A stretch of 9,372 nucleotides of DNA, taken from a virus. Location of the stretch: the UHGV virus genome UHGV-1330501; one strand, given 5' to 3'. The notes beneath the pieces were generated by a model, which ran no database searches, was not told the origin of the DNA, and was given only the letters and a program-made list of their open reading frames with translations. Position numbers and translations under genes: made by a program. Shown here in pieces: positions 1 through 9,372 of the stretch. The stretch's first letter is position 1. Each line of letters starts with the position of its first letter.

Positions 1-55
1 TTCGATTTTCGCAGCGGCCTTTTCAACATAACGAGTCGTACATTATGCGCACCAA
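1..55. repeat. Left copy of a perfect 55-bp direct repeat (identical to 8400..8454); contains a dif-like XerD-arm/central/XerC-arm element (21..53) and the right half of a terminator stem (10..20). Probably truncated by the window start.
   Basis: Exact identity of 1..55 with 8400..8454; sequence diverges at 56 versus 8455. Plus-strand TTATGCGCACC (43..53) is the reverse complement of the E. coli dif XerC arm GGTGCGCATAA. Confidence 0.85.
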
Positions 56-91
56 TGGTAAGGATGGCGGGAACTGGCGTTACCGGTGCCG

Positions 92-325
92 TCATTGGTC
101 ACAGACCGTAATCCACTGGCCCAGGACGTCTTTCAGGCAATGTTGGCATAAATCCAGTTTTAAGCGATTACTGTCACCAAAAATTGAACCGTATCCAGCT
201 AAGTGATTAACAGACAGAAACTCATTGAACTCAATGTCATCTACCACCGTCTTCGCATGGCGACCACAGCGATCGCAGGTCTTCGCACATAACATTACAG
301 TATCGCTGGATGTGAAAAATTGCAT
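92..325 (-). CDS. Hypothetical small Cys-rich protein (77 aa), possible zinc-ribbon fold (C-x3-C-x2-C ... C-x2-C); accessory gene with no Ff counterpart.
   Basis: ATG at 325 preceded by strong SD (GAGGAG about 7 nt upstream on minus strand); Cys cluster CAKTCDRC ... CQHC in translation. Confidence 0.55.
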   Translation of the reverse strand: MQFFTSSDTVMLCAKTCDRCGRHAKTVVDDIEFNEFLSVNHLAGYGSIFGDSNRLKLDLCQHCLKDVLGQWITVCDQ

Positions 326-397
326 TTTATCTCCTCGTAATGCTGCCGCGCCGAATCAGCAATAACGCTAAAAAAACAGAATTGTTCGGCTTGGCCA

Positions 398-438
398 ACC
401 CCTGACACTAACAAAAGCAAGTTTTGTCATTGTCCGGG
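398..438 (-). promoter_or_regulatory. Long imperfect hairpin (about 19-bp stem, two mismatches, short loop) directly downstream of the 102-aa ORF; candidate terminator or minus-strand-origin-like structure. A run of seven T on the minus strand lies about 20 nt further on (plus 370..376).
   Basis: Plus-strand aacccctgacactaacaaaagcaagttttgtcattgtccggggtt is self-complementary (CCCCTGACA / TGTCCGGGG outer arms, ACAAAAG / GTTTTGT inner arms). Confidence 0.35.
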
Positions 439-442
439 GTTA

Positions 443-751
443 TCATATAAACCAATAGACCGTCCTTACGCCATTCTGGTTATCAATAACATAGCCGCAT
501 TGTTTCCTTAAAAATTCTTCTGCTAAATCAATGGCTTTTACAGAAATCTCATAAGAAGGAAGTAAAGTGTATCCTTTCCCTTCACTGGCAGCTGCTTTGA
601 TCGCATCCAGAGTATTATCAATCAGTAACAGAGCAAGTGATGCTTCATTTACCTGAGCCGAAGAACTTCTGGCTGCAAGTGTCATTGTTTTTGCTTCTTC
701 CGCTGTAATCGTTCGTTCTGCCAGAGCAGATAAAATCCCATAAGAATCCAT
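443..751 (-). CDS. Hypothetical protein (102 aa), Ala/Leu-rich and probably helical; accessory gene in the position of the Ff noncoding intergenic region.
   Basis: ATG at 751 with GGGG about 7 nt upstream; same strand as phage genes, immediately after the gene IV terminal hairpin. No recognisable family. Confidence 0.5.
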   Translation of the reverse strand: MDSYGILSALAERTITAEEAKTMTLAARSSSAQVNEASLALLLIDNTLDAIKAAASEGKGYTLLPSYEISVKAIDLAEEFLRKQCGYVIDNQNGVRTVYWFI

Positions 752-772
752 TAGTTACCCCAATCAATAATG

Positions 773-830
773 TCCATTTGATGGATAGCGAGCAGGGCTC
801 ACGCACCTACCCGCTATCCATCAAAGTGGA
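773..830 (-). promoter_or_regulatory. Large hairpin (about 18-bp stem with one bulge, 21-nt loop) overlapping the gene IV stop codon; candidate packaging signal and/or gene IV terminator, as in Ff phages.
   Basis: tccatttgatggatagcg (773..790) pairs with cgctatccatcaaagtgga (812..830); position directly after gene IV matches where the Ff packaging-signal hairpin lies. Confidence 0.45.
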
Positions 831-2086
831 CGAATGATATGTGCTGTAAGCAAAATATACATAATACGCTGTTCATTGCTGTCTGCCTTGCTACTGAAAA
901 TCCAGCCTATAAGAGGAATTTTACTTATAACTGGAACTGAACGCTCGGCATTGCTGAACGATGAATCGATAAGCCCTCCCAATAACAACGTCTGACCATC
1001 CTTAATCTGGACTGTCGTCTGAATCTGGCGCTGATTAGTAATAATATCGGATGCCTGATCATCATTGCTGATTGAATCAGCGCGAGTGTCGATAGTCAGA
1101 ACTAGTTGCCCGTTACCCATGACAACAGGCGTTACCTTGAGAGAAACGCCAACATCATGACGCTCGATAGTCTGAAACGGATTATTTACCCCGGCAGATT
1201 CGCCCGTTACCTTTCCGGTGATAAACGGCACATTCTTACCTACGGAAATGTAACCAGTCTGACCAGACTGAGTAAGAATACGCGGCGTTGAAATCACCTT
1301 AGAGCGTGAATTACTCTGGACAGCACGCAGAGACAGCGCCAACACGTTACCATCAAAAATACCAAAAGAACCGCCCGCCGTAGAAAGAGCGCTACCCAGT
1401 GCAGAAGTATTAAAGCCCCCCGCAACCTTATGACCGGATGCAGAACCTGCCGCAAACGATAAATCAACGCCATCAGACAAGCTGGTTTCAAACATCAGCG
1501 ACTGAATGAGAACCTGATCGCGGGCAACATCCACAGAATTGATAAAATCGGACAGAACCGGCAGCAGCTCGTCAGGCGCAGAAACAATCAGCGAGTTATT
1601 GCCTGGATAATCCACGACATTACCACCACCATTAGAATCAAGATAAATTTTAATCAGTTGCTGAACATCGGACGATCTAACTTTTGTCAGCTTAAAATTT
1701 CTGACCGTAAGCGCCACAGGTACTGGCTGGTAAGATGGCTCAGAAGGAAAAGTATCATAAGACTGGTTATCAGAATCATCGGAATCCGAAACCATCTGTG
1801 AAGGTAATTTAGACGGCAAAGAGACTACCGCAGGATTGCCAGAAAGCATGACAAAACCGTTAGCATTCAGAACAGACTTAAAGAAATCATCAATATTTGT
1901 TGGATTAACATCAGCATTAAATACGGTTACGTTTCCTTTAATATCAGGATTAACAATAACAGGCTTGCCAGTTTTTGAAGAATACCACTGAACAAATGAG
2001 CGAACAGATGAATTATTTAAATTAACAGTTTCAGCAGAAACGCAGAATGAACAGGCAAATAAAAAAGCAACAATAACAGAGCGCAT
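821..2086 (-). CDS. IV: Filamentous phage gene IV protein (pIV), outer-membrane secretin for virion export.
   Basis: Translation aligns along its length with M13 pIV as I recall it (e.g. GSFGIFxGxVLxLSxRA, NVPFITGxVTGESAxVNNPFQTIER, ILVPxLSKIPLIG). Start chosen at the internal Met (MRSVIVAFLFACSFCVSA, signal-peptide-like) with GGAG SD; the longer ORF to 2179 would overlap gene I. Confidence 0.9.
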   Translation of the reverse strand: MRSVIVAFLFACSFCVSAETVNLNNSSVRSFVQWYSSKTGKPVIVNPDIKGNVTVFNADVNPTNIDDFFKSVLNANGFVMLSGNPAVVSLPSKLPSQMVSDSDDSDNQSYDTFPSEPSYQPVPVALTVRNFKLTKVRSSDVQQLIKIYLDSNGGGNVVDYPGNNSLIVSAPDELLPVLSDFINSVDVARDQVLIQSLMFETSLSDGVDLSFAAGSASGHKVAGGFNTSALGSALSTAGGSFGIFDGNVLALSLRAVQSNSRSKVISTPRILTQSGQTGYISVGKNVPFITGKVTGESAGVNNPFQTIERHDVGVSLKVTPVVMGNGQLVLTIDTRADSISNDDQASDIITNQRQIQTTVQIKDGQTLLLGGLIDSSFSNAERSVPVISKIPLIGWIFSSKADSNEQRIMYILLTAHIIRPL

Positions 2087-2093
2087 AATAATA

Positions 2094-2468
2094 TTACTCC
2101 TGACAGGTAACAGTCTGTAAATAACGGCCTTTTCTAATAACAACACGACAGGCATCTTTAATATCAACGGAATAACCATCTTTAATCAAATCAAAATACT
2201 GATATTTCATACCTTTTGCATCAACAAACGTAACGGAAACGTCAAAGCCAAGTTGTGAAAAAGAATTAATAGAAAGTCGGGGTAAGTCACTGGACGAATC
2301 AGGCGTTACCGCCCTCGCCTGTTCAGCATAAGCAGATTTAATAGCTGAGATTTCATCAACATTCTTTCCAGACTGGAGCCAGAAACCAAACGCAAGCCCC
2401 AGCGCCAAAAAAGAAAGCATTAATATAAGACGGTTCGATTTGCGAAAATAAATTTTAGTGAGGCGCAT
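2094..2468 (-). CDS. XI: Putative gene XI protein (pXI), in-frame internal start within gene I at Met241 (MRLTKIYFRK...), as in Ff phages.
   Basis: Internal ATG at the position corresponding to M13 pXI start (MKLTKIYLKK), followed by a hydrophobic membrane segment. Confidence 0.5.
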   Translation of the reverse strand: MRLTKIYFRKSNRLILMLSFLALGLAFGFWLQSGKNVDEISAIKSAYAEQARAVTPDSSSDLPRLSINSFSQLGFDVSVTFVDAKGMKYQYFDLIKDGYSVDIKDACRVVIRKGRYLQTVTCQE

Positions 2469-3188
2469 ATAATAATTAAATCCTCTGTGAACAGAAAATT
2501 GACCGTGCGTGATAAATGGTGGCAAAAGCGAAAATGCGCCATGAGGATAATTATCTGTGAACGCTTGTTTGGTATTGTAAGCAGAATAAAGAGATTTTCC
2601 TGTATATATCCATTTATCAACAGTGATTGAATTAACATTATCACCATATTTGACAATGCCAAAGTGTACCTTTGGTAAAGAAAATCTCGCCCCTGAAACC
2701 AAATTCATAATGGAGCCAACAAAAGGAATGTTTAATTTATCTGAACGGCGACAATAAACAACATGCTCAGCAAGCGCCAGACGAGCTTGCTTATCCATTA
2801 TCGAAATATCCTGAATCAAAAATATAATATCCCAGCCTAATTTTCTGGCATGTAAAAACCAGTCAATAACAGGTTGTCTGTCTTTATCACCCCATGAGCG
2901 GGAATTAAACCAAGTACCACATTCATCAAGTACAAGGAGGCCATTACGGGATTCATCGTAAGATGTATTCCCAATACCAATAGCAAGTAAATCATTTAAT
3001 GAAGGCTTGTCAGGAATGCGAATAACGCGCGTTTTTTTCGCATAACGCCCAACCATAGGCATATTATGCAATTTAAGATCAAGATTAGTGGCAACAGGAC
3101 AACCCTTAGCAAGTCTTTCCTGTATTCTGGAAACACTAACAAGTGTCTTGCCTGAGCCTAATTTGCCTGTTACTACATAAACCGCCAT
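2094..3188 (-). CDS. I: Filamentous phage gene I protein (pI), Zot-like assembly ATPase with Walker A motif GKLGSGKT.
   Basis: N-terminus MAVYVVTGKLGSGKTLVSV closely matches M13 pI (MAVYFVTGKLGSGKTLVSV); conserved LLVLDECGTWFN and ARKLGWDIIFL; start directly follows the gene VI stop. Confidence 0.92.
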   Translation of the reverse strand: MAVYVVTGKLGSGKTLVSVSRIQERLAKGCPVATNLDLKLHNMPMVGRYAKKTRVIRIPDKPSLNDLLAIGIGNTSYDESRNGLLVLDECGTWFNSRSWGDKDRQPVIDWFLHARKLGWDIIFLIQDISIMDKQARLALAEHVVYCRRSDKLNIPFVGSIMNLVSGARFSLPKVHFGIVKYGDNVNSITVDKWIYTGKSLYSAYNTKQAFTDNYPHGAFSLLPPFITHGQFSVHRGFNYYMRLTKIYFRKSNRLILMLSFLALGLAFGFWLQSGKNVDEISAIKSAYAEQARAVTPDSSSDLPRLSINSFSQLGFDVSVTFVDAKGMKYQYFDLIKDGYSVDIKDACRVVIRKGRYLQTVTCQE

Positions 3189-3533
3189 TTAAATCACCCT
3201 GTTTGCATAATCAAGAAATTTTTGTTTTAAATCGAAAACAAAAACACTGATACGAGTAACCATAATAACGTTAACACACGCCTGAAAATGGTCAGGCAAT
3301 ACAGACGCCATTAAATGGGAGAAATCAGCAGGTAAACCGTTATACATGACCTCAGCAAGGTACTGCATTAAAAGCGTAACAGTTGTTGTAATTAATGCGA
3401 CCAATGCAAAGGCGATTAATCCTGTTCTGGTAGCAAGTCGAGCTAAAAAACTCGCCACATAGCCAATAAACAAAGGAACAAGACCAATAAGAAAACGCAA
3501 CAATGCAGGAATACCTAATAATAAAGGCATCAC
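3189..3533 (-). CDS. VI: Filamentous phage gene VI protein (pVI), minor coat protein.
   Basis: N-terminus [15 protein letters not shown] and C-terminal FVFDLKQKF resemble M13 pVI (MPVLLGIPLLLRFL ... FIFDVKQKI); start overlaps the gene III stop (ATGA). Confidence 0.85.
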
Positions 3534-4825
3534 TCACCCCCTTTGCGAAGCAATGAAGTTAAAGAAGTAAAGACATACCAGAACGTAAGGCAATAAAAAA
3601 CCCATGAAAGAACATCTTTAATAGTCAGTAATTTATCGCAACCAATATCAATCTGATAAACCTCTCCGGGAAAAATAATAAAATCAGAGCAGCCGTTACC
3701 ATTGGGTAAATTAGGCAGCATAGCACCTTTATTTAAAAATGCTTCCCATAAAGCACCGTGAGAATCCTTTTCAATTCCCAATTCAGAATCAGCTAAAGTA
3801 GAAGCGCCATCTAATTCAGAGTCGCCCTTTCCATAACGAGAATCACCACCTGAAGGGTCAGCAAAACGGCCAGCCCCCCGCGTAAGATTGTTAATGGAAT
3901 CGTCAAGACGATTTATATTATTCCTGGTTTGTTCATCGGCATTTTTTTTATCATCTGATGAAGTGTCTTTCTCCGTTAATTTATCATGAATATCGCTGGC
4001 TATTTTGGGTGAAGCACCTTCGATCGCAGACTGAATATCACCTTTAGAAAGACTGGAACCACTAGAGCCACCGCCAGAACTACCGCCACCGGACTCACCA
4101 CCGCCAGACTCACCACCACCGGACTCACCACCACCGGACTCACCACCACCGGACTCACCACCGCCGGACTCACCACCGCCGGACTCACCACCGCCAGACT
4201 CACCACCACCATTTTGGGGGGTTGAGGGTTTATCAGAGGGGTCAGCTACAGCACCTGTAGGCTTCCATGTTGCAGCGCAAACAGTACCATCACCCTGACA
4301 AACAATGACACCAGTAGCCTCATATTCACAGCCGTTATAGTAGATATAGCGACCACCATCATATGAATCAACATTATTAAATACACCTTCTTCTGGCGGC
4401 TTCGCTTCACAAATTTCTTCTGGTGTCGGGTCAGTAGGTTTTTCATCAGGAACAGAACGCTGAATATTACCAACAATATAAGCCGTTAAAGACCAATATT
4501 TATCCTTCTGCCCTGGTGAATCGCTGTAAGTACAATCGCCAGTAAAAACAAGACGGAATTCAGAATCAGGCCAGATACCCTCATAAGTTGGTTTAATCCG
4601 AGTAAATACACTCTGAGCACTGGATTTAGCACCCTGACAAGCGGAGGCCTGCATAGCAGCATCAATATAGTAAACCGTTATCTTAGAGCCATCCTGATTG
4701 GTTATTTGCTTACTTTCAGCATAGGCAGAACTTTGATAAGTGGATTTAGTAATGCTTTCCCATGACTCAGCATGTGAAAAAGGAGAAATGAGGACAGCGG
4801 AAAGAATTAATATTTTCCTTCTCAT
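3530..4825 (-). CDS. III: Filamentous phage gene III protein (pIII), minor coat / adsorption protein with Cys-containing N-terminal domains, Gly-rich (GGGES)n linker and C-terminal membrane anchor.
   Basis: Position after gene VIII and its terminator; signal-peptide-like start [19 protein letters not shown] chosen over the longer ORF to 4969, which would overlap gene VIII; Gly-rich linker repeats. Confidence 0.8.
4091..4210 (-). repeat. Tandem array of eight 15-bp units (minus-strand sense CGGTGGTGGTGAGTC and variants) encoding (GGGES)n in the pIII linker, with degenerate copies extending to about 4063.
   Basis: Direct reading of the repeated gactcaccacc(a/g)cc(g/a) units in the plus strand. 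Confidence 0.9.
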
Positions 4826-4843
4826 AGTAACCCGCTTTAATAA

Positions 4844-4862
4844 AGGGGCAACGAGTGCCCCT
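4844..4862 (-). terminator. Stem-loop (AGGGGCA, 5-nt loop, TGCCCCT) between gene VIII and gene III, followed on the minus strand by TTATTAAAG; candidate intrinsic terminator, as after gene VIII in Ff phages.
   Basis: 7-bp GC-rich inverted repeat in the sequence; position matches the Ff gene VIII terminator. The T-tract is weak. Confidence 0.45.
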
Positions 4863-4871
4863 GAGTGAAAT

Positions 4872-5114
4872 TCAAACCGCTTTTGAAGAGAATTTTTTGA
4901 AAATACGAATGGCAAGCCCAGCGCCAACCACAGCAACAACAACAGGCCATACTTTACCAATGAGATCATTTGCCTGAGTCAACAAAGCATCCATTGCCTG
5001 ACCTGCATAATCAGTACCACCTGTAGCGCCTTCAGCCGCAAAAGAACTTGCAGAAATAAAAAGCGCAGTTGAAGCCAAAGCAATTTTATATTTAACAGTA
5101 GACAGAATTTTCAT
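4872..5114 (-). CDS. VIII: Filamentous phage gene VIII protein (pVIII), major coat protein precursor.
   Basis: Signal peptide ending SFA followed by AEG; acidic N-terminus, hydrophobic core and basic C-terminus (KKFSSKAV) parallel M13 pVIII (SFA-AEGDD ... KKFTSKAS); GGAG SD upstream. Confidence 0.88.
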
Positions 5115-5133
5115 AGGAATAACTCCATTAAGG

Positions 5134-5229
5134 TTACATTAATCGGTCAGAAAATGATTTAAATGAACCGACCGCATAGAAAAGGGCAAAACCAAAGGTA
5201 TAAGCCCCGAAGAAATAAACGATATACAT
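5134..5229 (-). CDS. IX: Putative gene IX protein (pIX), 31-aa hydrophobic minor coat protein (MYIVYFFGAYTFGFALFYAVGSFKSFSDRLM).
   Basis: Small ORF whose ATG overlaps the gene VII stop (TAATG); size, hydrophobicity and position match Ff gene IX. Confidence 0.6.
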   Translation of the reverse strand: MYIVYFFGAYTFGFALFYAVGSFKSFSDRLM

Positions 5230-5315
5230 TAACGAAAGACCCCCGCAGTAATCGCGCCGAGGCCAAAAGAAATAACGATGCCAGACGCTATCAAAATTTG
5301 AATAACATCGTCCAT
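5229..5315 (-). CDS. VII: Putative gene VII protein (pVII), 28-aa hydrophobic minor coat protein (MDDVIQILIASGIVISFGLGAITAGVFR).
   Basis: ATG two nt after the gene V-position stop; composition resembles M13 pVII (MEQVADFDTIYQAMIQISVVLCFALGIIAGGQR). Not in the ORF track because of its size. Confidence 0.6.
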   Translation of the reverse strand: MDDVIQILIASGIVISFGLGAITAGVFR

Positions 5316-5317
5316 AT

Positions 5318-5635
5318 TTAACCTTTGATCTCTGCGATGCCACCATCGGAAGCAACATTATAAGTTACACCTTCCCTACCCTCCATTGACCACGCACGGA
5401 CATAGACAGGAATTTGAACTAATTTCCCAATGAAAGCATTCGCCTGGTTCATTAGACCTGCGTTAACGAGAGCCTGAGAAACTCGAATAATAATTTGATC
5501 CTGCTTTGTACCACCAAAACCATCAGGTATTTCAAGGCCAATACCAATTTCATTATAATAGCCCTGACCATTAACTTTATTACGTTGGCGGGCTCCCAAC
5601 ATTTTACCCTTAACGAAAAGACCATAATTAGACAT
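5318..5635 (-). CDS. Protein in the gene V position (105 aa); putative ssDNA-binding protein by synteny only.
   Basis: ATG at 5635 with AAGGAAAG SD, 11 nt after the gene II stop. The sequence does not obviously resemble M13 gVp as I recall it. Confidence 0.5.
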   Translation of the reverse strand: MSNYGLFVKGKMLGARQRNKVNGQGYYNEIGIGLEIPDGFGGTKQDQIIIRVSQALVNAGLMNQANAFIGKLVQIPVYVRAWSMEGREGVTYNVASDGGIAEIKG

Positions 5636-5646
5636 ATTACTTTCCT

Positions 5647-5961
5647 TTAATGCCAGCTACTGGCGTGCGAAATACGGTTGTAATCGAAAATAAAACCTTT
5701 CTCATAAATCCATAAGGGGATTTCCGCTGGCTTGGCTTCCAGCGTTCTTATTAGCGGAACAACGTTATTAGAGTCTGGTGAATCACAATAGAAATTAATA
5801 TCGATACCGAACGAAAGCAATTCTCTTCTATGGCGATAAAAAGTGTTATGAGGTAACATTTCTTTCATGTTAGCCCCTTGTTTCCAAAGTAAATAAGTTG
5901 ACTGTATTTTTCTTGGCAGTTTCGTTATTTTTTCATCACTTAAAATAGCATTCTGATTCAT
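5647..5961 (-). CDS. X: Putative gene X protein (pX): in-frame internal start within gene II (MNQNAILSDE..., about 104 aa).
   Basis: Internal ATG at 5961 preceded by GGGAG SD about 8 nt upstream; analogous to Ff pX, the C-terminal third of pII. An alternative internal ATG at 6009 lacks a clear SD. Confidence 0.4.
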   Translation of the reverse strand: MNQNAILSDEKITKLPRKIQSTYLLWKQGANMKEMLPHNTFYRHRRELLSFGIDINFYCDSPDSNNVVPLIRTLEAKPAEIPLWIYEKGFIFDYNRISHASSWH

Positions 5962-6699
5962 TTCTATTCTCCCTACATATTCAGAGAATAATTGACGTGG
6001 TGTTTTCATATTCCAGTTAGCGCCAAGCGTTAAATTTAAATCAATAAGCTCAGTTGTTCTTAATGTTAATTCAATACGTAATTTATCTTTCGTCCAGTCC
6101 AGTAACCCGGCTCGTACAAACTCTTCGGCTATCTGGTGCCCTTTTTTACCAGAAACGTGTTCATCATATTTTGAATAAAATTTCAGACTCCATCGACGGG
6201 AGTTTTTACCTAAATAAACTGTACCGCCTTTCCCACATGCGCGACCATGGCGTGTTTTAGCTTTAAATTCGGCGGCATAAAGCCATGATCTGACATTTTC
6301 CAGCGTAGATAATGAATACATGTAATTAATGTCAATACGTGAAATTTTATACTGACCTGCCATAACGGCTTTATAAGACGCTAAATCATGAGGAATATTC
6401 AATAAGGATAAAATCCTGGCATAGACCGTCAACATGAGCCCTTGTATATCATCCGACCCAACAACAGAATGCCCCTGCAGAAACTTGGAAGGATTACCAT
6501 CAATGTACAAATGTGTCGCTTTACCTTCGCCATTAGATCCTATCGATCGTACTTTCATCGTTGCTTCATGCGAGCCGCGAACAGTCAGTCGCTTAACGGT
6601 TTCCCACTCAATTGCACCGTCAGCATCAACGCTGACAACACTCCCCGCCGGAAGCGGTTTGTGTGTGCAAGGGAAAATCCCGGTAAGCCAATCGATCAC
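5647..6699 (-). CDS. II: Filamentous phage gene II protein (pII), rolling-circle replication initiator. Start placed at GTG 6699 (protein would begin MIDWLTG...); the ORF is open upstream to GTG 6741.
   Basis: Large ORF at the head of the minus-strand gene order; GAGGA SD 8 nt upstream of GTG 6699 and resemblance of MIDW... to the M13 pII N-terminus MIDMLVL. Confidence 0.8.
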   Translation of the reverse strand: MIDWLTGIFPCTHKPLPAGSVVSVDADGAIEWETVKRLTVRGSHEATMKVRSIGSNGEGKATHLYIDGNPSKFLQGHSVVGSDDIQGLMLTVYARILSLLNIPHDLASYKAVMAGQYKISRIDINYMYSLSTLENVRSWLYAAEFKAKTRHGRACGKGGTVYLGKNSRRWSLKFYSKYDEHVSGKKGHQIAEEFVRAGLLDWTKDKLRIELTLRTTELIDLNLTLGANWNMKTPRQLFSEYVGRIEMNQNAILSDEKITKLPRKIQSTYLLWKQGANMKEMLPHNTFYRHRRELLSFGIDINFYCDSPDSNNVVPLIRTLEAKPAEIPLWIYEKGFIFDYNRISHASSWH

Positions 6700-6868
6700 G
6701 AATAAATCCTCAAAATTGCAAAAATGACGACTTACTAACACATGAGTTCAGTAGTTCATTAGTGTTTAAACATTACACCAGTGAGCTAGTGAGTTCAAGA
6801 GGCTTGGATGATATGAGTTCATGAGCATGTATACTCACTTCAAATATTGCATTGAACGAGCGTAAAAA
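6700..6868. promoter_or_regulatory. Divergent intergenic control region between gene II (minus) and the plus-strand accessory operon, with three direct copies of TGAGTTCA (6743..6750, 6790..6797, 6814..6821); candidate operators, promoters and/or plus-strand origin.
   Basis: Direct repeats read from the sequence; location between divergently oriented genes. The first copy lies upstream of the preferred gene II start at 6699. Confidence 0.45.
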
Positions 6869-7051
6869 ATGGCAAAGCGCACGACTTATAACGTGACGGA
6901 AGAAAGAAAAATGAAACTAGAACGACTGGCTATAAATGCCAGTGTAAAACTAGGAAAAACAATTACATGGACAGAGATTTTAGGTTATCTGATTGATAAC
7001 TACTCTAAAGATGCAGCAGAAGATCTCATGTCTGCCAAACAAAAGGATTAA
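6869..7051 (+). CDS. Small basic protein (60 aa), candidate transcriptional regulator (possibly ribbon-helix-helix-like) read divergently from gene II.
   Basis: ATG at 6869 and stop TAA at 7049..7051; a short N-terminal stretch (TTYNVT) followed by charged helical sequence. Function inferred from position and size only. Confidence 0.5.
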   Translation: MAKRTTYNVTEERKMKLERLAINASVKLGKTITWTEILGYLIDNYSKDAAEDLMSAKQKD

Positions 7052-7068
7052 GTACCACGAATGGTACA

Positions 7069-7107
7069 AACGTGCAGTATTACCTACACTGCACGTTCTT
7101 TATTGTG
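7069..7107 (+). terminator. Hairpin (10-bp stem AACGTGCAGT / ACTGCACGTT, 9-nt loop) followed by CTTTATTGTG; candidate intrinsic terminator or attenuator between the regulator and the membrane-protein gene.
   Basis: Perfect inverted repeat plus T-rich tail read directly from the sequence. Confidence 0.45.
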
Positions 7108-7139
7108 CGGATTTTGAACAGCAACAAAGGATCAAAAGG

Positions 7140-7562
7140 ATGAGTAGAAATAACGAAACAAGCGGCGTTGAACTGGTTGTTGTAGGCGTATTTGCTTTCT
7201 GTCTGGCAGTTGTTGCCTGGCTAATGAAAACTTTCGATGTTGAATGGCAAACAGCACTGGAAACTGCGCCTGGCCTGATAGTCTGGCTGCTTGTTGTCGG
7301 TGCGGGGATCTTTTTCGGGATCAAAATGGAAACTGGCCTTATTCGCTGGGGTGCTCCACTGGCGATCGCCCTTCTGATTCCGGTATTCAAGCCAATTCTT
7401 AAGGAAGCTGCCGGAGTTCGTGAAACGGGTGGGCTGGTTTTCGATGATATGGTTTCGTGGTATGGAACTGGCTGGGGAATGTCTCTGATGTTCTTCGGGA
7501 TTCTTATTGTCGGATATGGCCTGCTTTATTGGTGGCACAGAAGAAATTCATATTACTGGTAA
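7140..7562 (+). CDS. Hypothetical integral membrane protein (140 aa, about four hydrophobic segments).
   Basis: Internal ATG at 7140 with AAGGA upstream; four hydrophobic stretches. The longer ORF from 6993 overlaps the regulator gene and the hairpin and is judged an artefact. Confidence 0.6.
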   Translation: MSRNNETSGVELVVVGVFAFCLAVVAWLMKTFDVEWQTALETAPGLIVWLLVVGAGIFFGIKMETGLIRWGAPLAIALLIPVFKPILKEAAGVRETGGLVFDDMVSWYGTGWGMSLMFFGILIVGYGLLYWWHRRNSYYW

Positions 7563-7590
7563 TCAATAAAACGTAGAAGAGAGGAAACAT

Positions 7591-7866
7591 ATGAAACTGA
7601 ATCCTGAGAAATACAATAGAAACATTACCCTGCTATGTCCTGTGTGCGGAAATACAGAGATGGAACACGAGGAAGAGTCTGAAGTCGTTAGATGTGTAGG
7701 CTGCGGGAAAGAATTTACTAATGATGAGTTAATCCAAGAAAACGGGGTGAGTATTGACGCTCATGTAGATGAAATAAAAGAAGAGTTAACAAAAGACATT
7801 CAAAAACAGTTTAACGACATGCTCAAAAAGGCATTTAAGGGAAGTAAGAATATAAGGATCAAATAA
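7591..7866 (+). CDS. Hypothetical zinc-ribbon protein (91 aa; CPVC-x14-CVGC followed by an acidic/basic helical tail).
   Basis: ATG at 7591 with GAGGAAA SD; two CxxC pairs; AT-rich composition distinct from the phage core; stop overlaps the next start (TAATG). Confidence 0.65.
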   Translation: MKLNPEKYNRNITLLCPVCGNTEMEHEEESEVVRCVGCGKEFTNDELIQENGVSIDAHVDEIKEELTKDIQKQFNDMLKKAFKGSKNIRIK

Positions 7867-8345
7867 TGACAACAAGTGATGCCATCGCTTTAGCTGCGCT
7901 TGTAGTATCGATTTACACTATCATATCGTCAGAAATGAAATCGAGAAAAAGCGATAGAGAACAAAAGGTTATAAAGGATGAGCAAGACAGGTTACGTAAG
8001 TTGCTTCTGGAAAAAGAAACAAAGTCAGCAATTAATGAGATGAAAGCTGAGCTTGGTGCTCGCCTCGTAAAAATAGCCAAAAACAACTATAGGCTCAAGA
8101 TATTTAATAGAGGGAGAGTTGAGGCTAAAAATATAGAGATTCATTTCCCTGATAACGATGGAAATGAATATCTTTCAATGCATGATGTAGAAGATAAATT
8201 TCCATATGAGGTATTACACCCGCAACATGGAATTGAAATTTTAGCGGGAATAAGCTTTGGAAGTAAAACTAAATACCGAATAAAACTCATATGGGATGAC
8301 AATTATAAAAGAAGAAATGAAGAGGAGTTTTTCATTTCTATATAA
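7866..8345 (+). CDS. Hypothetical membrane-anchored protein (159 aa): N-terminal hydrophobic helix, charged coiled-coil-like segment, C-terminal globular domain.
   Basis: ATG overlapping the upstream stop; N-terminal AIALAALVVSIYTIISS; AT-rich; followed by a strong terminator. Confidence 0.65.
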   Translation: MTTSDAIALAALVVSIYTIISSEMKSRKSDREQKVIKDEQDRLRKLLLEKETKSAINEMKAELGARLVKIAKNNYRLKIFNRGRVEAKNIEIHFPDNDGNEYLSMHDVEDKFPYEVLHPQHGIEILAGISFGSKTKYRIKLIWDDNYKRRNEEEFFISI

Positions 8346-8385
8346 ATTGGTTCGCACAATGACGTTATGCTAAAGAGGCCGCTGC

Positions 8386-8422
8386 GGGATTCGATTTTCG
8401 CAGCGGCCTTTTCAACATAACG
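8386..8422 (+). terminator. Intrinsic terminator: 11-bp GC-rich stem (AGGCCGCTGCG / CGCAGCGGCCT), 12-nt loop, then TTTT.
   Basis: Perfect inverted repeat 8386..8396 / 8409..8419 followed by a T-tract, 40 nt after the 159-aa gene stop. Confidence 0.75.
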
Positions 8423-8454
8423 AGTCGTACATTATGCGCACCAAAATTATAGAG
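8400..8454. repeat. Right copy of the 55-bp direct repeat, carrying the dif-like element (XerC arm TTATGCGCACC at 8442..8452); putative right attachment site of the prophage.
   Basis: Exact identity with 1..55; overlaps the loop and 3-prime half of the terminator. Confidence 0.85.
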
Positions 8455-8484
8455 GCTCAATGCTAATGTTCTATTTGTGGCTCA

Positions 8485-9372
8485 TTGGAGGCACTCAGTA
8501 TAATCCGGGAGCACTACCGTGATTTTGGCCCCACGCTGGCGCGGGAAAAGCTGGAGGAAGTTCACGGTCTGGTCCTTGGAAAGGAAACCATCCGACGTCT
8601 CATGATAAACGCGGGACTCTGGATCCCCCGCAGACAACGCGCACCGAAAATTCATCAGCCTCGTTACCGGCGTCCTTGTACTGGCGAGCTGATACAAATT
8701 GATGGCTGCGACCACCACTGAATACGGTAAACCGATGATCCTCTACAGCGATAAAGCCAGCGTATTCAGAGTCAATAATAAGCACGCCACCACCGGTCTC
8801 GGCGATACCCAGTTTGCCAGGGCCATGCGCTGCCTTAATATTACTCCTTTGTGTGCTGAAACCAGCCAGGCAAAAGGCCGCGTTGAACGTGCTCATTTGA
8901 CACTTCAGGACCGACTCGTTAAGGAGCTCAGGCTTAAGGGGATCTGTACAATAGAAGCGGCCAATGCATTTGCAGAAGAATACATGGCGGATTATAACCG
9001 GCGCTTTGCCAAAGAACCCTTGCATGATTTTAACGCGTACCGGCCGCTGGCATTAGACGATGACCTTGATGCAGAATTTACCTGGCGAGAGCCTCGCCGG
9101 GTATCAAAAAATCTGACTGTACAATACGATAAAATGCTCTATCTGATTGAGGACAACGAGTACAGTCGAAGAGCCATCGGCAAGTATATTGATGTCTGGC
9201 ATTATCCTGACGGACATAAGGAGCTGCGACTAAATGGCGTGCTGCTACCCTACTCCACCTATGACCGGCTTTCTGAGGTTGAGCCCGTCGCCATTGTAGA
9301 TAACAAGAGACTTGGCCATGTGTTGGATGTTGCCCGTCAGGTCCAGAGAAAACGGGACAATAATCGCTCACT
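8485..9372 (+). pseudogene. DDE-type transposase of an insertion sequence (retroviral-integrase-like catalytic core), interrupted by a frameshift near 8719 and running off the window end; family not determined.
   Basis: Frame 1 (TTG start 8485) ends ...IQIDGCDHH at TGA 8719..8721; frame 2 continues from 8720 with EYGKPMILYSDKASVF ... AKGRVERAHLTLQDRL (DDE-like D, D, E motifs), open to 9372. Confidence 0.7.

What the first reader, a model, noticed from the sequence alone, without database searches (positions are those of the whole stretch)
8386..8454. Attachment repeats carry a dif-like site with an exact E. coli XerC arm but atypical spacing, fused to a terminator
Read on the minus strand the repeat is GGTGCGCATAA-TGTACGACTCG-TTATGTTGAAA. 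The first block is identical to the E. coli dif XerC arm and the last matches the dif XerD arm (TTATGTTAAAT) at 9 of 11, but they are separated by 11 bp rather than the canonical 6-bp TGTATA. An alternative reading is a 6-bp centre TGTACG with a degenerate XerD arm. No integrase gene is visible in the phage, so host XerCD-mediated integration is the natural inference. Copy identity ends 2 bp past the XerC arm, where the two flanks diverge. The site also sits in the 3-prime flank of the terminator hairpin.
Basis: partly seen in the sequence, partly recalled or inferred. Interest (0 to 1): 0.7.

Follow-up and report, generated by a model that had tools for sequence, protein, structure and literature searches.

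The report
Known single-strand phage attachment hairpin
The repeat is the attachment site of a filamentous prophage that borrows the host XerC/XerD enzymes to insert at the chromosome's dif site, and its odd 11-base spacing is one half of a folded single-strand hairpin site already described for cholera phage CTXphi and proposed in print for YpfPhi and CUS-1Phi, so it is real but not new.

Summary
The sequence is as described. An exact 55-nt direct repeat (1-55 = 8390-8444) carries GGTGCGCATAA-11 nt-TTATGTTGAAA on the minus strand.

On the strand inferred to be packaged, the two sites fold into a 98-nt bulged hairpin (8347-8444). The supposed terminator is the tip of that hairpin.

This matches the CTXphi attP1/attP2 architecture. 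The 98 nt are identical to the site of Yersinia pestis YpfPhi, which the literature lists with CUS-1Phi as CTX-type.

- **Empty sites:** E. coli strain 7/2 chromosome and plasmid pRHB38-C24_4 carry canonical dif with the window's right flank.
- **Single prophages:** these regenerate canonical dif at the far end.
- **Closed junction:** tandem arrays and a circular Salmonella episome carry the 8444|56 junction.

The left copy is therefore a phage-phage junction cut by the window start, not attR. XerCD integration is strongly supported, but use of single-stranded DNA is inferred, not shown. The right flank is a remnant of an IS1202-family "dif hunter" insertion sequence. Verdict: already known, low interest.

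The parts
8432..8442 (-). XerC-binding arm of attL/attP1 (GGTGCGCATAA), identical to the E. coli dif XerC arm. In the integrated state this arm comes from the target dif.
   Evidence: Exact match. In relatives this arm varies with the host context (GGTGCACATAA, AGTGCGCATAA, GATGCGCATAA, AGTACGCATAA) while the rest of the site stays constant.
8421..8431 (-). 11-nt 'central region' of attP1 (TGTACGACTCG). Only TGTA next to the XerC arm matches the dif centre TGTATA. Most of it is bulged in the hairpin.
   Evidence: In relatives the centre is 10-11 nt and varies in sequence, with TGT invariant.
8410..8420 (-). XerD-like arm of attP1 (TTATGTTGAAA, 9/11 to dif).
   Evidence: The block is conserved at 8-9 of 11 in all 13 variants.
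8376..8409 (.). Tip of the hairpin: an 11-bp GC-rich stem (8376-8386 with 8399-8409) and a 12-nt loop (8387-8398).
   Evidence: (I2). Not called by the terminator scan. Three stem pairs show compensatory changes in the Brenneria relative.
8349..8375 (+). Second, inverted dif-like site (attP2-like): GGTTCGCACAA (8349-8359), TGACG (8360-8364), TTATGCTAAAG (8365-8375). It forms the 3' arm of the hairpin on the minus strand, the strand inferred to be packaged.
   Evidence: 2 mismatches in each arm; fold; pair counts.
8347..8444 (-). Complete 98-nt folded attachment hairpin (attP(+)-type), present here at the left prophage end as attL.
   Evidence: DNA fold -31.6 kcal/mol, z = -7.3, 0 of 200 shuffles as stable. 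The same fold appears in all 13 variants. Conservation stops 1-2 nt beyond its base, next to 16 different flanks. It is 98/98 identical in Y. pestis.
1..55 (-). Second copy of the attP1 half (XerC arm 43-53, centre 32-42, XerD-like arm 21-31, half stem 10-20, part of the loop 1-9), joined at 55|56 to the phage end. It is a phage-phage (closed attP) junction and is cut by the window start.
   Evidence: D3. The identical junction occurs in the tandem array of E. coli AF22, in Y. pestis and in the circular Salmonella episome.
56..8346 (-). Filamentous phage genome; one unit including the hairpin is 8389 nt. Genes on the minus strand: pII 5647-6741, pV 5318-5635, pVIII 4872-5114, pIII 3530-4969, DUF5455 protein 3189-3533, pI/Zot 2094-3188, pIV secretin 821-2179, and two small ORFs 443-751 and 92-325. 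Plus-strand regulatory and cargo ORFs lie at 6869-8345.
   Evidence: It is 99.7% identical to the prophage next to hipA/dif in E. coli UM146.
8443..8447 (.). 5-bp spacer (AAAAT) between the XerC arm and the IS end.
   Evidence: ISKpn21 also lies 5 bp (AACAT) from dif in plasmid pECO-cbb3. The literature gives 5 bp for this IS family.
8448..9372 (+). Remnant of an ISNCY/IS1202-family insertion sequence (left end TATAGAGGCTCAATG...; transposase gene truncated and frameshifted). It forms the host-side flank of attL.
   Evidence: The same remnant next to an empty canonical dif occurs in the E. coli 7/2 chromosome (1 mismatch in 945 nt) and in pRHB38-C24_4.

Best explanation
The element is the attachment region of an integrase-less filamentous (inovirus) prophage that uses the host XerC/XerD recombinases and dif. 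It is of the CTXphi type.

The phage carries two dif-like sites in inverted orientation:
- attP1 on the minus strand: GGTGCGCATAA-11 nt-TTATGTTGAAA.
- attP2 on the plus strand: GGTTCGCACAA-5 nt-TTATGCTAAAG.

They are separated by a 34-nt GC-rich stem-loop.

Inferred steps:
1. In the packaged (+) single strand (taken to be the window minus strand, the sense strand of pII to pIV), the two sites anneal into a 98-nt hairpin.
2. The stem presents a XerC-arm duplex and a XerD-arm duplex around a bulged, asymmetric centre (11 nt over 5 nt).
3. XerC cuts after GGTGCGCATAA on the 5' arm and on dif. The exchanged strand is held by the TGT(A) shared with the dif centre TGTATA.
4. Replication converts the pseudo-Holliday junction into a prophage.

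Shown products:
- attL is the host XerC arm followed by the whole phage hairpin sequence (8347-8444).
- The far end is the phage XerC arm followed by the dif centre and XerD arm, which regenerates canonical dif.
- Tandem copies and other elements occur at these dif loci, and the window's left copy (1-55) is such a phage-phage junction. That the regenerated dif is what accepts them is inferred.

In duplex form, neither the 11-bp-spaced nor the 5-bp-spaced site should be a normal Xer substrate (by analogy with CTXphi). The prophage would then be stable, and virions would come from rolling-circle replication across tandem copies.
For: **Anatomy**
- The inverted second site is present (I2).
- The minus strand folds to -31.6 kcal/mol, z = -7.3.
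- All 13 distinct variants from relatives fold the same way.
- 93.5% of cells are paired, against 30-50% when the partners are slid. Five pairs change on both sides, including one in the XerD arm and one in the XerC arm; 0 of 500 shuffles reach this.
- The conserved block ends 1-2 nt past the hairpin base, next to 16 different flanks.

**Products**
- Empty sites with the window's own right flank are canonical dif: E. coli 7/2 chromosome and pRHB38-C24_4.
- Single prophages have canonical dif at the far end: UM146; L006, L009, L011; L013.
- In attL copies the variation lies in the XerC arm and the sequence upstream of it, as expected if the crossover is at the border between the arm and the centre.
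- The closed junction 8444|56 occurs in a circular 7938-bp Salmonella episome and in tandem arrays.
- No recombinase is encoded in the phage.

**Register test**
- An 'arm' at 6-bp spacing matches dif at only 2-6 of 11 and shifts register in the variant with a 10-nt centre. The TTATGT[T/A]GAAA block stays at 8-9 of 11.

**Literature**
- CTXphi attP1 has a 12-nt centre (TGTGGCGCGGCA) and XerD arm TTATGTTGAGG. attP2 has a 7-nt centre, given as 5-7 bp elsewhere, and the two sites are 90 bp apart.
- YpfPhi and CUS-1Phi are listed as CTX-type members and as having attP features 'for direct ssDNA integration'.
- The YpfPhi review describes paired inverted XerC/XerD sites, regeneration of dif, and tandem arrays of 2-4 copies.
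- The window's 98 nt are identical to the Y. pestis site.
Against: - No experiment on this phage, and none I could find for YpfPhi or CUS-1Phi, shows single-strand integration or dependence on XerC. The papers say 'may' and 'proposed'.
- The prophage junctions would look the same after a duplex XerC-first reaction.
- Covariation rests on few independent events, mostly from two divergent lineages (L007 and L043).
- The folded arms contain non-Watson-Crick positions: a G.A and a T.G in the XerC arm, and two G.T plus an A.C in the XerD arm.
- YpfPhi is reported to excise frequently in some lineages and to insert between resident copies. The simple irreversible CTX model does not predict either.
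- The identity of the packaged strand is inferred from gene orientation by analogy with Ff phages. It was not observed.
Confidence: 0.8

Rival explanations
1. Duplex attachment site with a normal 6-bp centre (TGTACG) and a degenerate XerD arm (ACTCGTTATGT). It would recombine with dif as double-stranded DNA, as in TLCphi (XerD-first) or VGJphi (XerC-first).
For: The centre shares 4 of 6 bases with dif on the XerC side. This is the VGJ-type rule for XerC-only exchange. The prophage junctions are equally compatible.
Against: - The arm at 6-bp spacing matches dif at 5 of 11 here and 2-6 of 11 in relatives. Its register slips by one in the variant with a 10-nt centre.
- TLC-type sites need a centre almost identical to dif and a Xer activator. 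The centre here differs at positions 5-6, and Pfam gave no significant match for any phage ORF of unknown function.
- It does not explain why the inverted partner site and the hairpin boundaries are conserved.
Confidence: 0.1
2. The 11-bp-spaced duplex site is itself bound and recombined by XerCD, giving a truly atypical spacing.
For: Both arms are good matches (11/11 and 9/11). YpfPhi is reported to insert at the 'imperfect dif' between resident copies.
Against: For CTXphi, the 12-bp-spaced attP1 duplex is stated to be unsuitable for Xer recombination because of its extended centre. From my own knowledge, known Xer sites have 6-8 bp centres. Insertion between copies is also explained by homologous recombination. 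The conserved inverted partner is left unexplained.
Confidence: 0.04
3. The hairpin is simply a transcription terminator for the convergent cargo genes, and the flanking inverted dif-like half-sites are coincidental extensions.
For: There is a GC-rich 11-bp stem followed by TTTTC on the plus strand, directly after the ORF ending at 8345.
Against: - It is not called by the terminator scan, having a 12-nt loop and only 4 T.
- Pairing continues 26 bp beyond the GC stem through both Xer-like arms, with compensatory changes there.
- The block is conserved as a unit next to 16 unrelated cargo flanks.
- A terminator role for the tip is not excluded as a second function.
Confidence: 0.05
4. The two 55-nt copies are attL and attR made by one integration event, which is the first reader's 'attachment repeats'.
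For: They are direct repeats bracketing one phage unit of 8389 nt.
Against: Single-copy prophages of this phage end in canonical dif, not in a copy of the attP1 sequence. The left copy continues into phage hairpin sequence as far as the window allows, as at phage-phage junctions in AF22 and Y. pestis. It reflects either a tandem second copy or an assembly path through a circular replicative form. The window cannot tell these apart.
Confidence: 0.03

Closest known systems
YpfPhi (Yersinia pestis filamentous phage) attachment region
   Same: The 98-nt hairpin is 98/98 identical at the Y. pestis phage-phage junction. About 125 nt around attP are 96-100% identical. The phage forms tandem arrays and integrates at dif, and paired inverted XerC/XerD sites are described in the literature.
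   Different: The rest of the genome is mosaic. The pII/pV region is about 80% identical in DNA (pII 86% in protein), and the morphogenesis genes show no blastn match. The cargo next to attP2 differs.
CUS-1Phi (E. coli O18:K1:H7 filamentous prophage)
   Same: An E. coli prophage at dif, listed with YpfPhi as a CTX-type element.
   Different: CUS-1 is reported as 99% identical to YpfPhi over 7.1 kb. The window phage is not, so it is a relative that shares the att module rather than CUS-1 itself. I had no CUS-1 sequence to compare directly.
CTXphi attP(+) of Vibrio cholerae
   Same: - It has no integrase.
- Two inverted dif-like sites have a long (12 nt) and a short (5-7 nt) centre.
- TGT lies next to the XerC arm of attP1.
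- The XerD arm TTATGTTGA.. carries the same A-to-G deviation.
- dif is regenerated and tandem prophages form.
   Different: - The centres here are 11 nt and 5 nt.
- The sites are 34 nt apart instead of 90 bp, giving a compact 98-nt hairpin.
- The arm sequences follow enterobacterial dif.
- There is no experimental proof for this phage.
VGJphi-type and TLCphi-type elements that exploit Xer
   Same: They use host XerCD at dif and carry no integrase.
   Different: VGJ-type has a single fully paired 29-bp duplex site. TLC-type has a dif-identical centre, a degenerate XerD arm and an activator, XafT. Neither pattern fits here.
IS1202-family 'dif hunter' insertion sequences (ISKpn21, ISSen13, ISAjo2 group)
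   Same: The flank at 8448-9372 is an ISNCY-annotated element whose end lies 5 bp from the XerC arm, as published for this family.
   Different: Here it is a truncated, frameshifted remnant. It is host context and not part of the phage site.

Membership tests
CTX-type element exploiting Xer (folded single-strand attP) | No phage-encoded integrase or recombinase | tested here: met
   Pfam on all phage ORFs gave only inovirus replication and morphogenesis families. The annotation of the 99.7% identical prophage lists none.
CTX-type element exploiting Xer (folded single-strand attP) | Two dif-like sites (XerC arm, centre, XerD arm) in inverted orientation | tested here: met
   attP1 lies at 8410-8442 (-) and attP2 at 8349-8375 (+) (I2).
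CTX-type element exploiting Xer (folded single-strand attP) | One site has an over-long centre and the other a short, non-homologous centre, so neither duplex is a normal Xer site | tested here: met
   The centres are 11 nt and 5 nt here, against 12 nt and 5-7 nt in CTXphi. That the duplex sites are not normal substrates is inferred by analogy.
CTX-type element exploiting Xer (folded single-strand attP) | The two sites anneal in the packaged strand into a stable hairpin that presents both arm duplexes | tested here: met
   z = -7.3. All variants fold alike. 93.5% of cells are paired, with 5 compensatory pairs. Which strand is packaged is inferred, not observed.
CTX-type element exploiting Xer (folded single-strand attP) | Homology to dif is limited to the bases next to the XerC cleavage point | tested here: met
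   TGTA is shared with TGTATA, and TGT is invariant in 13 variants while the rest of the centre varies.
CTX-type element exploiting Xer (folded single-strand attP) | Integration regenerates dif at one end, and tandem arrays form | tested here: met
   Canonical dif at the far end. Tandem junctions. Empty sites.
CTX-type element exploiting Xer (folded single-strand attP) | Integration of single-stranded DNA needs XerC catalysis only, and the pseudo-Holliday junction is resolved by replication | not testable with these tools
   This needs genetics or in vitro recombination. It has been shown only for CTXphi.
VGJ-type element exploiting Xer | A single duplex dif-like site with a 6-7 bp centre and a bona fide XerD arm | tested here: not met
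   The arm at 6-bp spacing matches 2-6 of 11, and two inverted sites are present.
TLC-type element exploiting Xer | Centre almost identical to dif, a degenerate XerD arm, and a Xer activation factor next to attP | tested here: not met
   The centre TGTACG differs from TGTATA on the XerD side. Pfam gave no significant match for the ORFs next to attP, and the structural search of ORF 443-751 was uninformative.
YpfPhi/CUS-1Phi phage group | Shared att module and replication module | tested here: met
   The att hairpin is 100% identical, the pII/pV DNA is about 80% identical, and pII protein is 86% identical.
YpfPhi/CUS-1Phi phage group | Near-identity across the morphogenesis genes (CUS-1 is 99% identical to YpfPhi over 7.1 kb) | tested here: not met
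   There is no blastn match between the window and the Y. pestis copy over pVIII to pIV. The genome is mosaic.
Rho-independent terminator | Short GC stem, a loop of 3-8 nt, and a following run of T | tested here: not met
   The consensus scan does not call it, because the loop is 12 nt and the tail is TTTTCAAC. There is no Rfam match.
IS1202-family dif-targeting insertion sequence (right flank) | IS end 3-5 bp from the XerC side of a dif or dif-like site, in a fixed orientation | tested here: met
   There is a 5-bp spacer here and next to ISKpn21 in pECO-cbb3.

The most novel reading that the evidence does not exclude
The duplex phage-phage junction seen at 1-55|56 has a perfect XerC arm, an 11-bp centre and a 9/11 XerD arm. 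It might itself be a working Xer target for an incoming folded single strand. That would explain the published oddity that YpfPhi inserts between resident copies rather than at the regenerated dif. It would also mean that XerCD can use a partner site with an 11-bp centre. A related possibility is that the compact 98-nt hairpin also serves as a packaging or complementary-strand signal.
Probability: 0.07. Interest if true: 0.5.

Novelty: already known. Interest (0 to 1): 0.15.

Why it matters
The site explains how an integrase-less filamentous phage becomes a stable prophage at the replication terminus of E. coli and relatives, and why it forms tandem arrays. Its unusual spacing is a diagnostic signature of CTX-type (single-strand) attachment sites and can be used to annotate such prophages. 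The mechanism class and this exact sequence, in YpfPhi, are already described, so the finding adds no new biology. The practical gains are correct prophage boundaries (8347-8444 is attL, and canonical dif is expected at the far end of the array) and a warning that the 55-nt repeat length is set by the window edge.

Tried and rejected
- **Plasmid-only context:** The right flank first matched IncFIB plasmid pRHB38-C24_4 with an empty canonical dif, which suggested integration into a plasmid dif. The same dif plus IS remnant module is common in E. coli chromosomes, with about 1600 chromosomal places. Strain 7/2 has 1 mismatch in 945 nt and no indel, whereas the plasmid copy has an extra C. The replicon of origin is therefore open, and a chromosome is at least as likely.\n- **Naming it CUS-1:** I rejected this after the comparison with the Y. 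pestis copy showed a mosaic genome.\n- **Xer activation factor next to attP (XafT/XafV-like):**\n - Pfam and PHROGs gave only families of unknown function for ORFs 92-325 and 443-751.\n - A single-sequence AlphaFold model of the 102-aa ORF had pLDDT 70.\n - Foldseek against viral structures found nothing at E <= 0.001.\n - The afdb50 library was unavailable.\n - The question was left unresolved.\n- **Terminator and RNA-family readings:** The scan and Rfam found nothing at the hairpin.\n- **Phage collection:** It holds no close relative. Only about 190 nt of the pIV gene matched IKe and Erwinia PEar phages at about 80%.\n- **Gonzalez et al. 2002 (PMC135385):** This paper could not be read.

Full report
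**1. Observation**

The reported sequence is correct. On the minus strand, 8442->8410 reads GGTGCGCATAA TGTACGACTCG TTATGTTGAAA.
- The first block is an exact E. coli dif XerC arm.
- The last block matches the dif XerD arm at 9 of 11.
- The two blocks are 11 nt apart.

The site lies in an exact 55-nt direct repeat, 1-55 = 8390-8444. The flanks diverge 2 nt beyond the XerC arm. An exact 11-mer is expected about 0.0045 times in this window (my arithmetic) and occurs only in the two repeat copies. The left copy starts at window position 1, so the length of 55 nt is set by the window edge.

**2. What the window is**

The minus strand carries a complete inovirus gene set, and no recombinase is present:
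- pII
- pV
- major coat protein
- pIII with a Gly-rich linker
- DUF5455 protein
- Zot-like pI
- secretin pIV

The phage unit is 8389 nt. It is 99.7% identical to a prophage lying next to hipA in E. coli UM146, and 26 complete E. coli genomes hold at least 80% of the window. The phage collection has no close relative.

**3. The missed half of the site**

A second dif-like site lies on the plus strand at 8349-8375: GGTTCGCACAA TGACG TTATGCTAAAG. It is inverted relative to the reported site.

On the minus strand, 8444->8347 reads:

TT | GGTGCGCATAA | TGTACGACTCG | TTATGTTGAAA | AGGCCGCTGCG | AAAATCGAATCC | CGCAGCGGCCT | CTTTAGCATAA | CGTCA | TTGTGCGAACC | AA

As single-stranded DNA this folds into one long hairpin. 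Both arm pairs are annealed and the centre is bulged.
- Energy is -31.6 kcal/mol, z = -7.3, and none of 200 shuffles is as stable.
- The 'terminator' of the finding is the tip of this hairpin.
- A terminator consensus scan does not call it, because it has a 12-nt loop and only four T.
- Rfam has no match.

**4. Comparative tests**

*Empty sites.* The window's right flank (8428-9372) matches the E. coli strain 7/2 chromosome with 1 mismatch in 945 nt. There the site is canonical dif, ATTTAACATAATATACATTATGCGCACC. The same module occurs in plasmid pRHB38-C24_4. Occupied and empty sites are identical from the flank through the XerC arm plus TGTA and then diverge. This places the crossover where XerC cuts.

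*Far end.* Single-copy prophages end in phage DNA followed by canonical dif. Examples are UM146, L006, L009 and L011, and L013, which has the window's own IS flank at attL.

*Closed junction.* The junction 8444|56 exists in a circular 7938-bp Salmonella episome. It also exists between tandem copies in E. coli AF22 and Y. pestis. The window's left copy is therefore a phage-phage junction, not attR.

*Host-derived arm.* In attL copies, the variation lies in the XerC arm and the upstream flank. The arm reads GGTGCACATAA in Y. pestis, and AGTGCGCATAA, GATGCGCATAA and AGTACGCATAA elsewhere. Phage-phage junctions keep GGTGCGCATAA.

*Structure conservation.* I compared 13 distinct hairpin variants from 30 instances.
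- All fold alike.
- 93.5% of pair cells are standard pairs, against 30-50% when the partners are slid.
- Five pairs change on both sides, including one in each Xer arm; 0 of 500 shuffles reach this.
- These changes come from few lineages, so the support is moderate.
- The conserved block ends 1-2 nt beyond the hairpin base, next to 16 different downstream flanks. This marks the whole hairpin as the functional unit.

*Register test.* With a 6-bp centre, the putative XerD arm matches dif at only 2-6 of 11, and it slips register in a variant whose centre is 10 nt. The TTATGT[T/A]GAAA block stays at 8-9 of 11, and TGT next to the XerC arm is invariant.

**5. Mechanism**

*Shown:*
- the anatomy of the site;
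- the empty, occupied, tandem and circular junctions;
- the absence of an integrase.

*Inferred:*
- The packaged (+) strand is the sense strand of pII to pIV, by analogy with Ff phages (established knowledge).
- It folds into the hairpin, and XerC and XerD bind the two arm duplexes.
- XerC exchanges one strand pair with dif, stabilised by the shared TGT(A).
- Replication resolves the intermediate.

The regenerated dif would allow further insertions. In duplex form, the 11-bp and 5-bp centres should not be normal Xer substrates (by analogy with CTXphi). That would make the prophage stable and make virion production depend on tandem copies.

**6. What is known**

This is the CTXphi architecture.

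| Feature | CTXphi | This phage |
|---|---|---|
| attP1 | AGTGCGTATTA-TGTGGCGCGGCA-TTATGTTGAGG (12-nt centre) | GGTGCGCATAA-TGTACGACTCG-TTATGTTGAAA (11-nt centre) |
| attP2 centre | 5-7 nt | 5 nt |
| Separation of the two sites | 90 bp | 34 nt |

- Das et al. state that the attP sites of CUS-1Phi and YpfPhi have features for direct single-strand integration.
- They list both phages as CTX-type.
- Bischerour et al. call them enterobacterial relatives of CTXphi.
- Derbise and Carniel describe the inverted XerC/XerD sites, the regenerated dif, the tandem arrays and the 'imperfect dif' between copies for YpfPhi.

The window's 98 nt are identical to the Y. pestis site. The phage itself is mosaic. 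The pII/pV region is about 80% identical in DNA, and the morphogenesis genes are unrelated at the DNA level. It is therefore a relative that shares the att cassette, and it is not CUS-1 or YpfPhi itself.

**7. Flank**

Positions 8448-9372 are a truncated ISNCY/IS1202-family element. Its end lies 5 bp from the XerC arm. This is the published behaviour of these 'dif hunter' insertion sequences.

**8. Verdict**

The XerCD inference is supported. The explanation of the spacing, the terminator reading and the attL/attR reading are not supported. The feature is already known, and interest is low.

Noticed in passing
window 8443-9372: A truncated, frameshifted ISNCY/IS1202-family insertion sequence ends 5 bp from the XerC arm of the site. 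The same dif plus IS remnant module, unoccupied, is present at about 1600 chromosomal places in complete E. coli genomes and on IncFIB plasmids such as pRHB38-C24_4. The phage therefore most likely inserted into a dif already flanked by a 'dif hunter' IS.
   Followed up: yes
window 8345-8444 plus 56-79, against L008 (Y. pestis) 8757-8880: A cassette of about 125 nt around attP is 96-100% identical to YpfPhi. The sequence on both sides is unrelated or only about 80% identical. The att module looks exchanged between otherwise different inoviruses, as hybrid rolling-circle products from mixed arrays at dif would give.
   Followed up: partly
window 7591-8345 (+), and the equivalent position in L002, L004, L005 and hits H18, H26: The genes directly next to the attP2 arm are a variable cargo slot. 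Here they are a zinc-ribbon ECs_2282-family ORF and a 159-aa ORF of unknown function. In relatives the slot holds an STM4504/CBY_0614 family protein, a PD-(D/E)XK nuclease domain protein, or a Doc-family toxin. I counted 16 different flanks.
   Followed up: partly
L004 (plasmid pECO-cbb3) 5343-5413 and 353-380: Many conjugative enterobacterial plasmids carry a relic of the same hairpin. It has the attP2 arm, the tip and the XerD-like arm but no XerC top arm, and it sits beside an STM4504-family gene. A canonical 28-bp dif lies about 5 kb away, abutted by ISKpn21. This looks like a decayed Xer-dependent element on plasmids.
   Followed up: partly
window 4038-4225 (-): About nine tandem 15-nt units encode a (GGGES)n linker in the pIII attachment protein. 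The annotated pIII length differs among near-identical prophages (1293 nt in UM146, 1245 nt in the Salmonella episome).
   Followed up: no
L006 3853-3890 and L035 664-761 / 5610-5707: Other dif-like sites lie upstream of the prophage in related loci. One example is AGTGCGCATAA-TGTGTTGA-ACATGTTAAAT next to hipA in L006. L035 has two different hairpin-bearing elements 4.9 kb apart. This suggests arrays of several Xer-dependent elements at enterobacterial dif.
   Followed up: no
L001 (E. coli UM146) 11404-11640: The RefSeq record has a run of ambiguous bases immediately after attL. The run resembles the phage end (CCAATGGNAANNANGG...) and overlaps a hipA pseudogene. It may be a collapsed second copy or a remnant.
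   Followed up: no
window 92-325 and 443-751 (-): Two small ORFs of unknown function (phrog_5435 and phrog_4115) sit between pIV and the XerC side of attP. Xer activation factors sit next to attP in TLCphi and VGJphi. No family or structural match was found for these ORFs.
   Followed up: partly
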